Assembly: GCA_000182565.2 (NCBI GenBank)
Contig: KQ257456.1
Reading direction: 5' to 3' (one strand)
DNA length: 29,083 bases
Source: Spizellomyces punctatus DAOM BR117
Lineage: Eukaryota
The notes under the pieces are model-generated. The model searched no databases and was not told where the DNA came from. It was given only the letters and a program-made list of their open reading frames with translations. Positions 1 through 29,083 of this stretch are shown in pieces. The translations under genes were made by a program, and so were the position numbers. Position 1 is the stretch's first letter. Every line of letters starts with the position of its first letter.

Positions 1-441
1 GGGTGTGATTTCTGCTGCGACAGTACATAGTATGTGTTAGTAGTTGCTAGGGTATATGTAGCTTTTGGATTGGTAGCAGCTTTCTTGTTTCTTCTTTTTT
101 AATACTTGAAAATATCATTCTCGTTACCGCATTACAATTATACAATGCATTCGGATGGCAACAGCGATTGCCTTGGCTCGCCCCATGTTGCCAACGTTGA
201 AAACCTCTGCATTCTAGCGCAAATGTCGGAAGCGAAGTGTAGGCCCTGATTTTCTATGGAACCAATGCAACCCCTTCCAATCGGTTGTTTGGTGGCGGAT
301 TGTGTTTTGATCTGTTGACATATGAACCGTCTTCAACTTTTGATTCTAATGCGAATTTCCAAGTTCATATCTAGCATCTACAGCATCCTTTTTGGATATT
401 CATTTCGTTCAAATGCATCCTTTTTGTCCTTTACCATTTTC

Positions 442-530
442 AACCTGTAGAGTACGTAGTGTAGAGGTGACAGAAACTGGCACTAGCTACTACACCAGGG
501 AATAAACCGGCGACAACCGGTTCGGAAAAG
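442..530 (-). ncRNA. Fanzor omegaRNA, divergent 'ghost'-type scaffold (530-457) plus flank-derived guide (from 456 downward, CGTACTCTACAGGTT...)
   Basis: Minus strand reads CTTTTCCGAACCGGTTGTCGCCGGTTTATTCCCTGGTGTAGTAGCTAGTGCCAGTTTCTGTCACCTCTACACTA. It aligns with the copy at 28496-28422. Stem AACCGG/CCGGTT is kept and stem GTGTAG/CTACAC covaries with the other copy. Guide length (~15 nt) is assumed from published SpuFz1 RNAs. Confidence 0.8.
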
Positions 531-1208
531 CTAACTAAGCTACTACTAGGCAATTATACACGCAATACGTAACGGTTGGTTCTAACCGGATAATTGCCCA
601 CCACCACACGCGGTCCCTACTAGGCCTTGATCTGGAACTCTTGATGGCATTGAAGCCAGACTCTTGCATCCAGGAGCGAATCGACTGGGCAGCGTCACAA
701 GCCAGAGGATGTTCAGTGACAAGGCTTGGAGACTAGAGAAAATGCATGTCAGAAGATGACCCGATGACAAGAAATAAAATGATGCAATCAGTACATACCA
801 ACCAAGCTCAACCAATGTGGCAGCATAATAGTAGGTTTTGTTATCGGATCCGATTGGTTGCCGCTGGTTCTGATCACGGTTGCTGTCGGGCGGTCGAGGT
901 CCTCGGCACCAGAGCAGTATTCTCATGATTGGACTGAGACTTGTTGGGTGGATGCTTTGAGTCGAGGATGGGTAAAGAGGAAAGAGGGAAGAGGGAGCAG
1001 GTCCCCCGTTTATAGACCTTTGGCATGCGCCTCACCGCAGTTTAAAAAAAAAGCTACATTAGCATGCCACACCGCAGTTTGGAGAACATTAGCATCCATG
1101 CCTCCTCACCGCTTTGAGCAATGATGGGGGTTCTGATTATGCGATATGATTAACCGGATTAATCCGGATAATAATGGGTCCTAGTGCCATTTTCAATCAC
1201 CTCCACAC
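459..1208 (-). mobile_element. Complete 750-bp non-autonomous Fanzor-associated TIR element (Spu-1-like 'ghost'/MITE) with TA target-site duplication
   Basis: 28-bp imperfect TIRs: 459-486 GTGTAGAGGTGACAGAAACTGGCACTAG vs reverse complement of 1181-1208 GTGTGGAGGTGATTGAAAATGGCACTAG (24/28). TA flanks both ends (457-458, 1209-1210). 1209-1212 TATG reads CATA on the minus strand, the known SpuFz1 TAM. An omegaRNA-like scaffold occupies the opposite end. No Fanzor ORF is recognisable inside. Confidence 0.92.
1023..1115. repeat. Three imperfect tandem copies of an (ACATTA)GCATG..CACCGC(AG)TTT unit inside the element
   Basis: 1023-1043 gcatgcgcctcaccgcagttt; 1056-1080 acattagcatgccacaccgcagttt; 1086-1115 acattagcatccatgcctcctcaccgcttt. 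Confidence 0.75.
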
Positions 1209-1499
1209 TATGATATTTTTGAATCCAAAAGGGCAGGAACGAATCAGGGCTTCTCCTCGAGCGGTAAGTGCTTAGTCACTGCTTACGTAACACACGACGC
1301 AACTTGTGACACTTTCATTTGAGGATTCTACAAAGCAAAATTCCCACGCTCCGGTTGACGGTCAGCGTTTTTCAAGAGCATTTTAAACATTTCTTTTTCA
1401 CGGTGGACGTTTTCGTCTGTTTTGGAGAGGGTTACAAACCCACTTGGCTCTTGGGAACTTACCTAGGCAGCATTGGTTGCGGCCGTTGCTTCCGTCAGG

Positions 1500-4400
1500 A
1501 TGCCCTTTTGGAGTAGGAACAAGAAGAGGAGAGCGAGGACGCCTCCTCCTAACCTGCAAACGCCGCCTGGACAGCACCACTCTCCTTCCGCACTGTCCTT
1601 CTTTGGCTTTAGAAAGCGGAGTCCTTCGCCGTTTACCGCACTCCGTTCTCGTGATTCTCCCTCGTCTCCAGAGTCTGGTGGACATGGAGGCAGTGCCAGA
1701 GATCTACCCTACCACCCACACCACTACAGCGAGGGATTCCTTTCTCCACCAGACCGGCGCTTTAACTTTGAATTAGAATATGATAGAGCGGCCGCCGAAG
1801 CTGCTTCTGACAAGCGTGCTCCTCGGGTACCCTCAAAGGCCCATGAGAGCGTGTCAAACAAGCCGGCAACGACACCGGTCGTCGTTGTCACGTCAACAGG
1901 ACCGTCGTGCGTAATACAGTGCGATCGTCACAAGACTGTGCAGTGGGCGTTAGAGAAGGCTAGTACATTGCTTCCAAAGGACCACTCGGAGTTGGTGGAG
2001 GCTAGAGGACCTGATGGGAAGAAGGCTCTGGGAAGCGAGAGAGTTTTGGATTTTTGTGGAGTCAATAAAGTGAGTGTTGACTGGAAGAATCGCTATACAT
2101 ATATATATGATCAGGCAGTTCTGGTAATGTTGCATATATGGATACTGATAAACTTCATTTGACGGTGTGTGTAGATTCTCGTAGTTACAGTGGCGACTCC
2201 CGAATTCAATCGACGTGCTAGTGTAGACTCGCCTGGTGGATATATAAGCGCCCGGGACGGTCGCGAAGCTTTTGATTTTGAAGATTTGCGACGCAGCTCA
2301 AAATTGGATCGAGAGGAGCGTCATTCGAGACGGCTTGCCTTGGTCGGATCGAAGGGCCGTCGGGATGCGGACGTCTCTTCGCGAACCCTTTTACCAGAGT
2401 CGCGCGAACAAAGTTTCGATGCTGGCATCGAGGCTGACATTCTTGCAGGCCATCCTTCGCGTATGCCCAGACCTGTCAGTCCCAGGTTCGATCGTGCTGC
2501 TACCCCCTCTCCTCTACCGTTTGAAGGACGTCGCTCAAGTAGGGACGAACGTGCAAGCCGGCCTAGTCGTGATGACTATGCTGAAAGGCGCGGCAGCAGA
2601 AATAGCAGGGAGGAAAGGTCAAGTAGAGATAGTCAAGATGACCGAGCAAGTCGCACTAGTCGAGATGAGAGCAGAAGCAGTCGCGAGTTTGGTCGAGCGC
2701 GTTCTCCTGTTCGGTCATCCTCTCGTCTTTCGGGACTTGACAGTGTCATGGAGGACTTGGCGAAAATGGCTGATCATGAAGGGGGTTGGGTTTCTGCTGT
2801 GAGCCCAAATCAACGTATCAGCCATGGAGATCCTTCTTCAGGTCGTGCTGGTCGTGTATTAGAGGACCAGAAAATGGTGCATGAAGCCGAGAGCTACTCC
2901 TCTCTGGCTGCACCAGCTGCCGAGGTAAGCGGCTCACAGCGATCCCAATCCCCGCTCCCGAGGCTCCTTACGCAGCCGTTGCGAAGATCTCCATCTGAGT
3001 CATCATCTTTGCTTGCGCAGGAGAGCCCTGTCTCTAGGAATCCGCTGAATCGGCACGACGTTGATCGACGCTTGACGGAGATTTTGACCTCTGGTATGCA
3101 CATGAACATCAAAATATAGCGAGTAATATTGTATTTACAGTTATGTCCTGGTTAGTTGGAATGGAGATCGATGATGCCCTGAACGAATTATCCCTTGGAG
3201 ATGGTAAGGCTGGGTACTGCTTTACACGGGTATGATTGCACGGTTAACAGTACATGCAGAACGCACAGACTCAGAACCACCCTCCCCACCGCCAACATCT
3301 CCCGTTGATGAGCTTCCGGACTTTGATGATGTGTCGGATGATAGCTCGTCGCGACGCTCTGTTCGAAAATCCCGCCGCTTGACGCGAATATCGCGTGCAT
3401 CGGCTCTCGATATTTTTGCAGCGTTAGGTATGAACGCCGAATATCTGAATGTGACATTGAGCAGAAAGGCTGATGTGTATTCAACGTATGATGCAGAGCA
3501 ACAAGCGAAGGAAGAGCCTACACCGGACCTAGATACTCCCATGCTTGCCCTACCGGTTTCCGATACCGCTTCCCGGAGAGTGAGTCGCATTTCGCGAGCT
3601 TCCGCGCTTGACATGTTCTCCAGTATGCGCAGCTCGAGCAGGTCAGATGATGGGGAAGACGAAGGATATGAACAAGTGGAACGAGAAGAACTAATAGATG
3701 CGGAACCTCGCTTGTCTTCCGTTGATGTACCTAATCCTACACCAGCACCAGCTCCGCCACCTCCTCCATCTGATAGTGTTGTTCCGTCTGCATTGGTTAC
3801 AACAGCCCCAGCTGCCCCAACGCTGCCAGTGACGAGTACGGAGGCAAAAGCGGGGCCACCTCCACCACCACCGCTCCCACCGGTGATGGTTTTCGAAGAG
3901 TCAGCAATTCCTCCTCCACCTCCACCTCCACCTGTGATGACTTTTGAACCCTCCGCGATCCCGCCGCCGCCGCCCCCACCACCTGTCATGGTTTTTGAAG
4001 ACTCTTCAATACCGCCCCCACCACCACCACCACCTGTCATGGTGTTTGAAAACTCGCCAATTCCGCCCCCTCCTCCACCACCTCCGCCCATGATATTTGA
4101 GAATGCCGGCAGCATACCTCCACCGCCGCCGCCTCCACCGCCCCCTCCTCCAGCTCTTGGGATCCCTCCGCCACCTCCTCCTCCACCTCCACCTCCCGGT
4201 GCAGGCCCCCCACCACCACCCCCGCCCCCTCCACCAGGCGGTGGGCCACCACCTCCACCACCGCCGCCATCAACAGCTGCGCCCGCATCCGCAGGAGACC
4301 TTCAATCTGCATTTTTGGCAGAGCTGCGAGATCCTAATAGAAGAAAAAAGCTTCGGAAGGTCAAAGTACCAGAGAGACCTCCTCCATCGGAAGCGGACAA

Positions 4401-5684
4401 AGCAGCGCAGGAGGCAAAGCAGAAGGAAGCGGAGAAGGGTAATGACGAAGCGGAGCGGCAGGAGCTGTATATTGAGCTTCTAGGCTACATGGAAGCACCG
4501 AATGGGAATATTGAGGAGCTCTCAGACAAAGCAAAGACTCAAACGAATTTAGTGCGAAGCTTTGTGTTCACTTTAATCCGCAAGGGATGGGTCCGTGGGT
4601 ATCGGGTCACTGACAATCTGCCAGAGGAAAAGGAGACCAAGGGCCCCAAAGGGAAGTCCAAAGGTCGCGCGCCATTGAAGGTGTGGCTGGGACGAGAGGG
4701 CATGATGTGCATCGAGCTGGAAGATTTAACGGGCGAAGAGCTGGTTGCCAAAGTTGGTGGCGAGAAAGCAGACCCACTTTCTATGCCAAATGATGATGGA
4801 AATGTGGTCAAACGCAAAGGCGAAGTGGCCCGTGTATACATGTATCGATTTGACGAGAAGTCAAAGCAACACGTCTTGGATGAAGTCGCGCTGGTCGCCA
4901 CAGGATCGTTCCCCAAAAAAACCAAGCGCTTTGATGACCCCGAACCACCCCAGGACTCGAGCTTGCATAATAGACGGAAATGGGAAGCGTGGAATGAAAA
5001 GAAACTTCAGTACCTGCAGAGTGACTGGCCGCAATTTGAGTTGATTTTCAACAAACTGGTGAGTGCCACCTGTCTTCTGCCTGAAAAAAAGTACACTGGC
5101 GCTTATTGTGTCCAATCACGTAGATGGCTACATCGTCTATTGTACAGTCCATTCACCATCAGCTCCATCAAACACTTGCTGAAATGCGGGCTATGGGTGA
5201 AGCCATGCATGACACATTTGCAGCGTTCCCTGTGACGCAAGTGCGCCGAATCGTAGAGTCCATACCGGGGCGGATCAAGGAAGTTGCAAAGAAGCTTCAG
5301 AAGCAGACTGGCATCATCATTCGCGATGAGTCTTTGAAGTTGACTCCGGAATTCCTGCGCTTGATGAATTTGGCACCTGATGGTACTGATAAGCAAGACA
5401 CGGCGACTGGTCCTGGCATTGGCGGGGCTCCGATATCCGAAACGCCATCTAACCCAATGGCGCGACCTGCCACCTTAGTTCATTCCCAGACTGCCCCGTC
5501 CTTGTCCACTGCGGCTGAACCAAACGCGACAGGTGAACAGTCGGGGAGTGCGAATATGCTCAATCCAAAGGGCATGATTACGATGGCGGGACTTCCCTTT
5601 GACGTCCTTCTCCCGTTGTTGAAGAAGTCCTTCAACAAGCAGGAGATTGGCGATGACAGGTTGTCGAGGCGTTTGACGCTATAA
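1500..5684 (+). CDS. Large (~1,300 aa) polyproline- and WH2-containing putative actin regulator, 5 exons
   Basis: ATG 1500. GT-AG introns 2070-2174, 3094-3155 (or -3140), 3204-3250 (or -3259) and 5059-5123 join ORFs 1473.., 2190.., 3232.. and 5124.. in frame. Stop at 5682-5684. Long polyproline tract, followed by a WH2-like helix+LxKV motif GDLQSAFLAELRDPNRRKKLRKV (4294-4362). Confidence 0.85.
3883..4137 (+). repeat. Five coding tandem repeats with a 51-nt (17-aa) period, VMxFExSxI-P8
   Basis: Units start at 3883, 3934, 3985, 4036 and 4087: VMVFEESAI, VMTFEPSAI, VMVFEDSSI, VMVFENSPI and PMIFENAGSI, each followed by a proline run. Confidence 0.9.
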
Positions 5685-20638: not shown

Positions 20639-22035
20639 TTATAAACGCGAAAGTGTATGCTGTAATGTGCTCTAAGAGGGCAGAGAGTAGGAAATTGTAA
20701 TAAATTGGTAAAGCAACGAGGTCCAATTCCCAAAACGAGATGGGGTCGGAGATGGGCAACTCGTTAAAAACCTGCGATGACATGCCATTTCCCCATTCAA
20801 ATGACCACATTCCCGTGATCCATCCGTTCACCCACGTGGACAAGTCATTTGAAGCCAAAAGCAGGAAAACGTGTCGCTTGAAGCATTTTTTGTTTACCTT
20901 TCAGACCCTCATGCGTTCATCAACTTTCAATGCATCGTTTAACAGGATATCGTCCTGTATGAATGTATTCGCAATGGAATCCCCGTGCAGGGAAACTGTA
21001 AGGCGTACGAAGAATGTGGATGAGAATCCGATTGAGTTGCCCTTTCCCTTTTTCGTACTTGGCGGCGGATGAATGGCAAAATTCCCAGATTTGGGGTGTT
21101 GACTTGTCTATTCACCCACTCAATCTGCAGTCGCCCTCTTTGCCAATCATAGCATATGGCATATGGCACCAGAACGGAACGGTGTATTCTGACCTCATTG
21201 GACAAAATCAAGAATTACTAGCGTGTGAGCATCTGCTTTCAGATACTCCTTCCATTGGACATTCATTTGACTAAAACAAAAGCGTCGGATCAGAGAAGCC
21301 TACAGGCATTTTCAGCACGGTCAGATCTAAGACGACCGTCGTGATATAAAGTCTCATCAGTTCCGCGCAAAAAGCTCCAGTTTCAGTCGGTGAGAATCCT
21401 ACTATTCCTCGTGTGGAACGAAACACACAAGACAGCTCGAGCCATTCCAGACTAAGAATAGTATGACCTCATAGACAAAAACAGGTTTATAGATACCCAG
21501 TCAGACGGAGCCCACCATCCTTCCTACCGGGTTGGAATATCCCAGAGGAGCAATCTTCAACGGGAGGGAGGCGACCAAAAGGCACGCCTCAAACGCTCCC
21601 CACTTCTCGTTGGATAGAGGCTCTCCGTCTCATCATCCTGGGTGATATGTGCGACTTTGTTAGAAAACAAAGCGAGGTACGACAGACTCCACATATGATC
21701 CTGAAGAGTTGGTCGATAAAGAAAACAAGAGGAGGACGAGGAACGACGGGTTTTTATAGCCCTGGAGCCGCATCACGCGAGTGGCGCAATGACAAAAAAA
21801 AGCATGAGCCAATCACCGGTGCAGCCACTGTTAACATGGAAACAGGACTGCGCAAATTCGCTTGTTCAAATCCACACGTGATCCCCTTTCAAAAATGTTC
21901 AGATATCGAACAAAAAAAACCAATGTTATCTATAAAAAAAATACAGTATGACGTCCTATAACAAGAACCCAATGTACCTGCATCAAAGATTCATCCTATA
22001 AGCCAACCATTCTATGCACCGCTCATTGAAAAAAA

Positions 22036-28406: not shown

Positions 28407-28496
28407 TACAATTGGGGTTAGTAGTGCGGAGCCGGTGGGTATTGGCACTAGCACCCGCACCAGGGATTGAACCGCGCGACAACCGGTTCGGAAACC
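28407..28496 (-). ncRNA. Fanzor omegaRNA, SpuFz1-type 75-nt scaffold (28496-28422) plus flank-derived guide (from 28421 downward, CTAACCCCAATTGTA...)
   Basis: Minus strand reads GGTTTCCGAACCGGTTGTCGCGCGGTTCAATCCCTGGTGCGGGTGCTAGTGCCAATACCCACCGGCTCCGCACTA, nearly identical to the SpuFz1 omegaRNA scaffold as I recall it. It lies ~20 nt downstream of the Fanzor stop and ends at the element boundary. Stems GAACCG/CGGTTC and GTGCGG/CCGCAC. Confidence 0.9.
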
Positions 28497-29083
28497 TTAA
28501 TCTAACTAGTCTACGCTACGCTACCACTGGAACACCCCTCCTGAACACCTCTGGTCTACCGTGTCCATCCAACATTGATTGCATGATTGCCAGCATGTTG
28601 CAGGTTGACAGTGTATCTCGATTCCAGTAGCGCATTGTCCAGGCTTGCTGCAAACAGTTAGGGTTGGTACAACCCAGCAATCCATGGACTTTTTCAACCT
28701 TGCCTTCTTGTCATCACCAAGGTCTTGAATGAGGTCATGTTTTGAAGTCCTTTTCAAGGAAGTGTAACGACGAGGACGTCTTCGAGAGATCGCGAGTAAG
28801 CCCAAATCGGACGCGGGAAGCACGAATCGCGTGACCAACTCCACCGATTGGGTTACCGCGACCGAAAAAACCGGTTCGGAGAATGGCAATTGGCGCATTA
28901 GATTTCAGCGTGCCTCGTACAACCTGTGGAGGCCCGAGCCAGTGCGGAAAAGGAAGAGATCGGTACCGCCACCAATAAATCAGTTGCGGTGCAGCGACAC
29001 CCATTAGTTTAGTTTAGTTTAACAGTTTATCCAAGAATCTTGTATAAAAAGGATGTATTCAATAAAATAAGTCGGGGCAGAAG
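28424..29083 (-). mobile_element. Spu-1-type Fanzor element: omegaRNA end with TIR and TA; internally deleted/decayed; the other end is not visible in the window
   Basis: TA at 28422-28423, then terminal sequence GTGCGGAGCCGGTGGGTATTGGCACTAG (28424-28451), the omegaRNA scaffold and a Fanzor C-terminal relic. No matching TIR is seen before 29083, so the extent beyond ~28880 is uncertain. Confidence 0.82.
28516..28782 (-). pseudogene. Fanzor1 (TnpB-like RuvC nuclease) C-terminal pseudogene fragment
   Basis: A single frame reads KTSSSLHFLEKDFKT*PHSRPW**QEGKVEKVHGLLGCTNPNCLQQAWTMRYWNRDTLSTCNMLAIMQSMLDGHGRPEVFRRGVPVVA*. It includes the second Zn-binding pair CxxxxC and the RuvC-III WNRD motif of TnpB/Fanzor, and closely matches the SpuFz1 C-terminus as recalled. 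Internal stops at 28735-37, 28714-16 and 28711-13. Confidence 0.92.

What the first reader, a model, noticed from the sequence alone, without database searches (positions are those of the whole stretch)
437..1212. Intact nuclease-less Fanzor 'ghost' element whose omegaRNA guide is programmed against its own empty site
Seen: 28-bp TIRs, TA on both sides, CATA (minus strand) abutting one end, and an omegaRNA-like scaffold running out of the other end into flanking DNA. Precise excision would rebuild minus-strand CATA+CGTACTCTACAGGTTG, i.e. TAM + guide match. Known: TnpB/Fanzor guides come from the flank next to the element end; SpuFz1 uses a CATA TAM; Fanzor-less ghost loci exist in S. punctatus. 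Inference: this element supplies only guide RNA and borrows Fanzor and transposase in trans to cut and re-occupy vacated alleles. Its TIRs differ clearly from the copy at 28424, so it may be a separate subfamily.
Basis: partly seen in the sequence, partly recalled or inferred. Interest (0 to 1): 0.9.

Follow-up and report, generated by a model that had tools for sequence, protein, structure and literature searches.

The report
Known guide-only Fanzor "ghost" transposon copy
This is one copy of the Fanzor-less "ghost Spu-1" elements already described in 2023 in the chytrid fungus Spizellomyces punctatus: a short transposon that carries a guide RNA for the Fanzor nuclease but no nuclease gene, so it is real but not new.

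Summary
Window 457-1210 is a 754-bp element with 30-nt inverted repeats (26/30 complementary). It ends in TA on both sides, has CA outside one end (CATA on the minus strand), has no Fanzor ORF, and has a 75-nt omegaRNA scaffold at the other end that reads into the flank.

A second copy at 28422 is linked to a SpuFz1 C-terminal remnant. It matches all 18 omegaRNA nucleotides named in the published SpuFz1 structure, in one register only. That places scaffold nucleotide 75 on the terminal TA and starts the guide right after it. The ghost copy keeps 15 of 18; one of the other three is deleted and two are a compensatory pair.

So an unoccupied CA-TA-flank site would read CATA + guide match, while the occupied junction reads ACTA.

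All of this anatomy is already in print (Saito et al. 2023: 134 ghost Spu-1 loci in this genome; 126 ghost scaffolds catalogued in 2026). Cutting and re-occupying vacated alleles remains an untested inference.

One small addition: contigs of RNA-like runs and two annotated gene models show a 66-nt GT..AG intron and a TATA box inside ghost copies. This suggests a spliced precursor transcript.

Novelty: already known. Interest is low.

The parts
441..456 (-). Guide segment of the predicted omegaRNA (flank just outside the right end). The native guide is published as 14-15 nt, i.e. about 456..442.
   Evidence: Register fixed by the 18/18 match of the canonical copy to the published nucleotide numbering. 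Sequence.
457..531 (-). 75-nt ghost-type omegaRNA scaffold: stem 1, 6-nt linker, stem 2. Stem 2 contains the right-end IR and ends in TA.
   Evidence: 15 of 18 published contact nucleotides are kept, G22 is deleted, and C40-G70 is replaced by U-A.
457..486 (.). Right-end (3') inverted repeat, 30 nt including the terminal TA.
   Evidence: shuffle control.
1181..1210 (.). Left-end (5') inverted repeat, 30 nt including the terminal TA.
1209..1212 (-). CATA = SpuFz1 TAM, made of flanking CA (1212..1211) plus the terminal TA of the element.
   Evidence: TAM from PMC10432273. In X1, 5 contigs of other copies fit through 1212 and then diverge (table 7).
733..798 (-). 66-nt spliceosomal intron (GTATGT...CTGAC...TAG) in a minus-strand transcript.
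   Evidence: The joint 732->799 is seen in X16 (1 contig), X9 (3 contigs) and X10 (1 contig), and in 0 contigs of X1. Sequence. Gene models P0017 and P0018 from other copies carry the same junction.
1009..1014 (-). TATAAA box upstream of where RNA-like cover begins (candidate internal promoter).
   Evidence: Sequence. Cover in X16 and X10 starts in the 892-928 bin; X9 cover rises from about 1000. This is an inference.
582..926 (-). ORF through the interior (92 aa after splicing). It is annotated in two paralogous copies and is probably not a real protein.
   Evidence: There is no Pfam family. The reading frames of the two models diverge after the junction. Of 9 copy variants, 6 are non-synonymous, and there is one 1-nt deletion.
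1146..1175 (.). Subterminal CCGG-containing palindrome near the left end. A similar TTATCCGGTTA motif lies near the right end (about 582-593).
   Evidence: (I2). The function (transposase binding?) is a guess.
28422..28496 (-). Canonical-type 75-nt omegaRNA scaffold of a second, Fz-linked copy. Its guide would be 28421..28407.
   Evidence: 18/18 named nucleotides; 3-6 of 18 in the six other registers; 8-nt hairpin loop.
28519..28878 (-). Remnant of the C-terminal ~125 aa of a SpuFz1-family gene (partial Fz locus).
   Evidence: (8gkh_P residues 967-1032, E 9.3e-34), (tblastn, 16 of 16 queries hit here).

Best explanation
Window 457-1210 is a copy of the published, non-autonomous 'ghost Spu-1' element family of Spizellomyces punctatus (identity about 0.95). 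The sense strand is the minus strand.

Most likely mechanism, with my odds for each step:
1. An internal TATA-type promoter near 1014-1009 drives a transcript towards the right end, and a 66-nt intron (798..733) is spliced out (about 0.7 for the family; not shown for this locus).
2. The 3' part gives a roughly 90-nt omegaRNA: scaffold 531..457 plus a 14-15-nt guide copied from the flank 456..442 (about 0.6).
3. SpuFz1 made by one of the full-length Fz loci binds it in trans (about 0.6).
4. The only DNA that fits TAM CATA plus guide is the same site without the element (CA-TA-flank). The occupied junction reads ACTA and is spared.
5. A break there, repaired from an occupied sister or homologue, would keep or copy the element, as proposed for TnpB (about 0.35-0.45).

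Shown here: the anatomy, the register, the multicopy state and family-level RNA. Inferred: steps 1-3 for this locus, TA being a target-site duplication, and step 5.
For: Family features:
- 30-nt IRs (0 of 100 shuffles reach 26/30).
- CA upstream of the 5' IR.
- No Fz similarity in the element: tblastn with 16 Fz-family proteins gave no hit in 437-1212 at E<=1.
- A scaffold related to that of an Fz-linked copy.

Organism: 11 of 16 hits to the Fz remnant are NCBI proteins named S. punctatus DAOM BR117. The remnant matches the PDB SpuFz1 chain 8gkh_P at E 9.3e-34.

Register: the canonical copy matches 18/18 of the nucleotides named in PMC10432273 section 10, in one register only. The six other registers tried give 3-6 of 18.

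Ghost versus canonical: the ghost copy keeps 15/18. Predicted folds show two stems and a 6-nt linker in both. The canonical copy has an 8-nt hairpin loop; the ghost has a 3-nt bulge and loop. This matches the paper's wording.

Covariation: 2 compensatory pairs between the two copies, with 44/46 cells paired against 34-48% when slid. A third comes from another ghost copy: an X16 contig carries 518 C>T together with 509 G>A, which are the paired scaffold nucleotides 14 and 23 (G-C to A-U) (tables 3 and 8; pairing).

Multicopy state and boundary: (X1).

Self versus non-self: ACTA at the occupied junction. The paper states that mutating any TAM base abolished cleavage.

Published function: 75-nt ghost omegaRNAs from four loci worked with SpuFz1 in human cells.
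Against: - No contig or read shown is specific to this locus's guide. RNA-like cover is at family level, and contigs cannot give RNA ends, strand or level.
- X9 and X10 are labelled 'DNA?' by the tool. If that is right, the 66-nt skip could be a DNA variant of some copies.
- No empty allele and no 456->1211 joint was seen, so TA as a duplication is unproven.
- Saito et al. found no transposase for Spu-1.
- Cut-and-paste elements with TA duplications usually leave footprints (recalled), which would separate TAM and target.
- The two IRs differ at 4 of 30 positions, and scaffold nucleotide G22, a named protein contact, is missing.
- The interior is 694 nt against the 'around 550 nt' of the paper.
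- I could not check that this locus is in the paper's list, because the supplements are closed.
Confidence: 0.8

Rival explanations
1. Same element, different role. Ghost omegaRNAs form a repertoire of guides that send SpuFz1 to other genomic sites, for example to help other transposons in trans or to act on host DNA, rather than to the element's own empty site.
For: This is the scenario written in the discussion of PMC10432273. More than 100 distinct ghost guides exist.
Against: The guide is simply the flank. In the 29-kb window the TAM+guide pattern with up to 3 mismatches matches nothing except its own junction. The rest of the genome could not be searched. A 14-15-nt guide copied from a random flank has no reason to match elsewhere.
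Confidence: 0.12
2. Inert relic. This copy is a decaying miniature transposon that is no longer mobilised, and its omegaRNA has no present function. The TAM and guide geometry is only a fossil of how the family inserts.
For: 4 of 30 IR mismatches. G22 is deleted. No transposase is known. No locus-specific RNA was shown. The neighbouring copy at 28422 is clearly degraded.
Against: The scaffold keeps its fold (z -3.84) and 15 of 18 contact nucleotides. Changes between copies are compensatory. Family RNA is abundant in RNA-like runs. Ghost scaffolds are active with SpuFz1.
Confidence: 0.25
3. The terminal TA belongs to the element and is not duplicated target, so the element sits between CA and CG. 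Excision or a naive site would then read CA-CG..., no CATA would form, and the 'own empty site' logic fails.
For: Saito et al. count the TA inside the 30-nt IR. No empty site was available here.
Against: Bao and Jurka 2013 describe SPu-1 as flanked by putative TA target-site duplications. The TAM found in the biochemical screen is exactly CA+TA, which is hard to explain otherwise. A Fanzor1 element of an ascovirus likewise inserts into TTTAN with a TTAN duplication (preprint 10.1101/2023.08.09.552727).
Confidence: 0.15

Closest known systems
Ghost Spu-1 elements of S. punctatus (Saito et al., Nature 2023, PMC10432273; passages and section 10 read)
   Same: 30-nt IRs, CA upstream of the 5' IR, no Fz ORF, a 75-nt omegaRNA scaffold over the 3' IR, ghost-type stem 2, the same organism, multicopy.
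   Different: The interior is 694 nt here against 'around 550 nt'. I could not confirm that this locus is among the 134 listed (supplements closed). The intron and TATA box inside the element are not mentioned in that paper ('intron' and 'spliced' occur 0 times).
SPu-1 / canonical SpuFz1 loci (Bao and Jurka 2013, PMC3627910; Saito 2023)
   Same: Related IRs and scaffold, TA at both ends, TAM CATA. The copy at 28422 in this window is of this type.
   Different: The canonical loci are about 2.1 kb with a 633-638-aa Fanzor ORF. Between the two copies in this window, the right-end IRs differ at 10 of 30 positions (my count; the paper gives seven positions between the IR consensus sequences). Stem 2 has an 8-nt hairpin loop in the canonical type.
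[quoted passage not shown]
   Same: The guide is the flank beyond the right end and the TAM abuts the left end, so the donor site without the element is the target. A nuclease break is repaired from a copy that still holds the element.
   Different: The bacterial elements are ssDNA transposons with TnpA and no duplication. Here the ends are inverted repeats with TA on both sides, the transposase is unknown, and the nuclease acts in trans from other loci.
Fanzor1 element of Spodoptera frugiperda ascovirus (preprint 10.1101/2023.08.09.552727; passages read)
   Same: A non-autonomous TIR element whose insertion motif (TTTAN) overlaps its duplication (TTAN), like CA+TA here.
   Different: It carries the Fanzor gene and has a different host and motif.

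Membership tests
Ghost Spu-1 element (Saito 2023) | Two 30-nt inverted repeats homologous to those around SpuFz1 genes | tested here: met
   26/30; 0/100 shuffles. The right-end IR aligns with that of the Fz-linked copy.
Ghost Spu-1 element (Saito 2023) | No Fanzor ORF between the repeats | tested here: met
   tblastn with 16 Fz-family proteins gave no hit in 437-1212 at E<=1. The interior ORF has no Pfam family.
Ghost Spu-1 element (Saito 2023) | Conserved CA upstream of the 5' IR | tested here: met
   The minus strand reads ...ATATCA|TAGTG. In X1, 5 contigs of other copies fit through 1212 and then diverge.
Ghost Spu-1 element (Saito 2023) | 75-nt region over the 3' IR similar to the omegaRNA region of Fz loci, with ghost-type stem 2 (3-nt bulge, no 8-nt loop) | tested here: met
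   15/18 named nucleotides; predicted folds. The folds are predictions only.
Ghost Spu-1 element (Saito 2023) | Conserved interior of around 550 nt | tested here: inconclusive
   The interior is multicopy by X1 depth but 694 nt long here. Copies could not be aligned because no genome is held.
Ghost Spu-1 element (Saito 2023) | Listed among the 134 loci of S. punctatus DAOM BR117 | not testable with these tools
   The list is in Supplementary Data, which is closed. The organism is supported by protein names.
OMEGA (TnpB/Fanzor) guide RNA | An RNA of scaffold plus guide is made from this locus | tested here: inconclusive
   RNA-like contigs cover 479-928 at family level. Summed X9 depth peaks at 448-521. 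No listed piece crosses into 441-456.
OMEGA (TnpB/Fanzor) guide RNA | Binds the nuclease and directs TAM-dependent cleavage | not testable with these tools
   Published for four other ghost scaffolds and for a set of catalogued ghost scaffolds (gst) in 2026. Not tested for this one.
TA-duplicating cut-and-paste transposon (Tc1/mariner-like) | TA target-site duplication | tested here: inconclusive
   TA is present at both ends, but no empty site is available. Called 'putative' in PMC3627910.
TA-duplicating cut-and-paste transposon (Tc1/mariner-like) | Cognate DDE transposase with matching TIRs | not testable with these tools
   None is in the window. Saito et al. report none within Spu-1 IRs.

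The most novel reading that the evidence does not exclude
Ghost Spu-1 copies are self-transcribing, guide-only parasites of the Fanzor system. Each has its own TATA promoter and a spliced Pol II precursor whose 3' end matures into an omegaRNA aimed at the copy's own unoccupied allele. With SpuFz1 borrowed in trans, the copy is restored after loss, or copied into a naive homologue, as a natural homing drive. The splicing and promoter are not mentioned in the two papers that discuss ghost loci.
Probability: 0.3. Interest if true: 0.6.

Novelty: already known. Interest (0 to 1): 0.2.

Why it matters
As a discovery it matters little. The element family, its anatomy, its TAM and the activity of ghost guide RNAs with SpuFz1 were published in 2023 and extended in 2026.

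The locus is still a clean worked example in three ways:
- The published nucleotide numbering fixes the guide start right after the terminal TA.
- The occupied junction carries ACTA, not CATA, which explains why the element does not target itself.
- Ghost copies seem to be transcribed as a spliced RNA from an internal promoter. If that holds, it bears on the open question of how eukaryotic omegaRNAs are made and what Fanzor does in its host.

Tried and rejected
Flanks of all copies could therefore not be tabulated.
- Metagenome scan with a 19-nt scaffold word: 6 loci, all alike over 19-26 nt only, so chance matches.
- Rfam: no family at the gathering score in the element (the only hit in the window is U3), and none at E<=1 in 380-1260.
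- ARAGORN: no tRNA. A tRNA-like origin of the scaffold was considered and dropped.
- Full-text search for the scaffold sequence in papers: only chance hits to a 10-mer, so no direct comparison with a printed omegaRNA was possible.
- Interior as a deleted Fz gene: no tblastn similarity.
- Interior ORF as a real protein: only 2 annotated relatives among 9 candidates. Their frames diverge after the intron. There is no Pfam family. Of the 9 copy variants inside the ORF, 3 are synonymous and 6 are not. I used 9 of the 13 rows table 3 and dropped 509, 518, 995 and 1177 because they lie outside the ORF.
- Frames 28521-28904 and 28735-29013 of the second copy: no PDB match.
- No cover of 300-447 or of the guide in X16 and X10, and no 456->1211 joint in any run. 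Contigs cannot show absence, so this is no evidence either way.
- The shuffle control is uninformative with two sequences (135/500).

Full report
**What is in the sequence**

Window 457-1210 is bounded by 30-nt inverted repeats (457-486 and 1181-1210), 26 of 30 complementary and 694 nt apart. None of 100 dinucleotide shuffles of the first 5 kb gave an inverted 30-mer pair better than 23/30. Both arms end in TA (457-458, 1209-1210). Outside the arm at 1210 comes TG, so the minus strand reads CA|TA.

**Organism and the second copy**

A related end lies at 28422 (52 nt at 86.5% identity; alignment).

- Just inside it, 28516-28710 (minus) encodes the last 64 residues of SpuFz1 (PDB 8gkh_P residues 967-1032, E 9.3e-34).
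- A database search with that piece gave 16 proteins among 20 candidates. Of these, 11 are named S. punctatus DAOM BR117 and 5 are unnamed.
- tblastn with all 16 proteins hit only 28519-28878, i.e. the last ~125 residues, apart from three weak chance hits elsewhere (E 0.19-0.57). Nothing hit in 437-1212.
- Two other upstream frames had no PDB match.

The window therefore comes from S. punctatus or a very close relative. The copy at 28422 is a partial Fz1 locus of the canonical type. The element at 457-1210 has no Fanzor gene.

**The scaffold and its register**

Section 10 of Saito et al. 2023 (PMC10432273, read) names 18 scaffold nucleotides: U5, C6, C7, U16-G20, G22, A29, C32, C34, U35, G37, C40, G70, A72 and A75. 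It describes two stems with a 6-nt linker (A29-C34) and a guide from nucleotide 76.

- The 75 nt 28496..28422 (minus) match 18 of 18 in one register. The six neighbouring registers match 3-6 of 18.
- This puts A75 on the terminal TA and starts the guide right after it.
- The ghost copy (531..457) keeps 15 of 18. G22 is deleted, and C40/G70 become U/A, which is a compensatory pair.
- Both fold into two stems with an unpaired 6-nt linker. The ghost scaffold has z -3.84, with 0 of 200 shuffles as good. The canonical one has z -1.64, with 14 of 200 as good.
- The canonical copy has an 8-nt hairpin loop. The ghost has a 3-nt bulge and a 3-nt loop. This matches how the paper distinguishes the two types.
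- On the shared structure 44 of 46 cells pair, against 34-48% when slid, with 2 compensatory pairs. The shuffle control is meaningless with two sequences.
- A third compensatory change comes from another ghost copy. One X16 contig (479-566) differs from the window by two letters, 518 C>T and 509 G>A, apart from a 1-nt gap at 539 that lies outside the scaffold. These two letters are the paired scaffold nucleotides 14 and 23 (G-C to A-U) (tables 3 and 8).

**TAM and guide**

The published SpuFz1 TAM is 5'-CATA, and mutating any TAM base abolished cleavage. With the register above, the guide is CGTACTCTACAGGT(TG).

A site lacking the element but keeping one TA reads CA-TA-guide match, which is TAM plus target. 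In the window the only match to that pattern (up to 3 mismatches) is the occupied junction. It differs at two TAM positions (ACTA), so the element should not target its own DNA.

This logic needs TA to be duplicated target. Bao and Jurka 2013 call it a putative TA duplication. I had no empty site to test it.

**Multicopy state and RNA**

No genome is held for this window, so I used public runs.

- In X1 (same organism code as X16, genomic-like) the flanks have depth 2-4 and the element 24-571. Unique-flank contigs stop at 485 and start at 1183. Five contigs fit up to 1212 and then diverge.
- X16 (labelled RNA?), X9 and X10 (both labelled DNA? by the tool) cover mainly 448-928. They have zero depth in the 744-780 bin, where X1 has 49.5.
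- These three runs carry a joint 732->799 that skips 66 nt (1, 3 and 1 contigs). X1 has none.
- On the minus strand the skipped piece is GTATGT...CTGAC...TAG, a standard intron.
- Two NCBI gene models from other loci (P0017 and P0018, the 2 hits among 9 candidates) carry the same junction, LVELG|CLQ.
- A TATAAA box lies at 1014..1009 on the minus strand, upstream of where the cover starts.

I read this as a spliced minus-strand transcript of ghost copies that runs into the omegaRNA region.

Caveats:
- The run labels are guesses.
- Contigs give no RNA ends, strand or level.
- Cover is at family level, not for this locus.
- If X9 and X10 are truly DNA, some copies may simply lack the 66 nt.

The ORF through the region is probably not a protein. 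The two gene models leave the frame differently after the junction. There is no Pfam family. Variants among copies are 3 synonymous and 6 non-synonymous, plus one 1-nt deletion.

**Comparison with what is known**

- Saito et al. report 42 Fz loci and 134 ghost Spu-1 loci in this genome. They describe 30-nt IRs, CA upstream of the 5' IR, a 75-nt scaffold plus a 14-15-nt guide, distinct IRs for ghost and Fz loci, and four ghost omegaRNAs active with SpuFz1 in human cells. They discuss Fz acting in trans with ghost guides, by analogy with TnpB.
- A 2026 paper catalogued 126 unique ghost scaffolds.
- Only these two papers in the library hold both 'Fanzor' and 'ghost'.
- Neither uses the words intron, spliced or (in the 2026 paper) TATA in its main text.

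**Verdict**

Noticed in passing
window 28422-28878 (minus): Partial SpuFz1 locus. It has a canonical omegaRNA scaffold plus a degraded remnant of the last ~125 codons of the Fanzor gene. No left end was seen before the window ends at 29083.
   Followed up: partly
window 733-798 and 1009-1014 (minus): A 66-nt GT..AG intron and a TATA box lie inside the ghost element. The spliced form is seen in three RNA-like runs and in two annotated gene models of other copies. Neither feature is mentioned in the two ghost-locus papers read.
   Followed up: partly
window 1146-1175, 582-593, 503-525: Repeated CCGG-centred motifs (TTATCCGGATTAATCCGGTTAA palindrome near the left end; TTATCCGGTTA and AACCGGTT near the right end). 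These could be subterminal protein-binding sites.
   Followed up: no
window 1029-1043 and 1066-1080: A 15-nt direct repeat 37 nt apart (GCCTCACCGCAGTTT / GCCACACCGCAGTTT), just upstream of the TATA box in the ghost interior.
   Followed up: no
window 608-782: One X1 contig joins 608 to 782 (skips 173 nt). Some genomic copies of the family seem to carry an internal deletion.
   Followed up: no
window 21496-21716 (minus): U3 snoRNA gene (Rfam RF00012, 65.2 bits, E 2.6e-12).
   Followed up: no
window 3736-4272: Proline-rich coding repeats, including four 51-nt tandem units at 3859-4062, inside the long ORF 3208-5235. No Pfam family was found.
   Followed up: no
window 300-1400: Root and soil metatranscriptome runs hold 6-18% of the sampled words of this stretch.
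   Followed up: no
P0012, P0013, P0015: Full-length Fanzor1-like proteins from unnamed ENA/Logan assemblies, 57-77% identical to the C-terminal remnant. This suggests relatives of SpuFz1 outside the reference strain.
   Followed up: no
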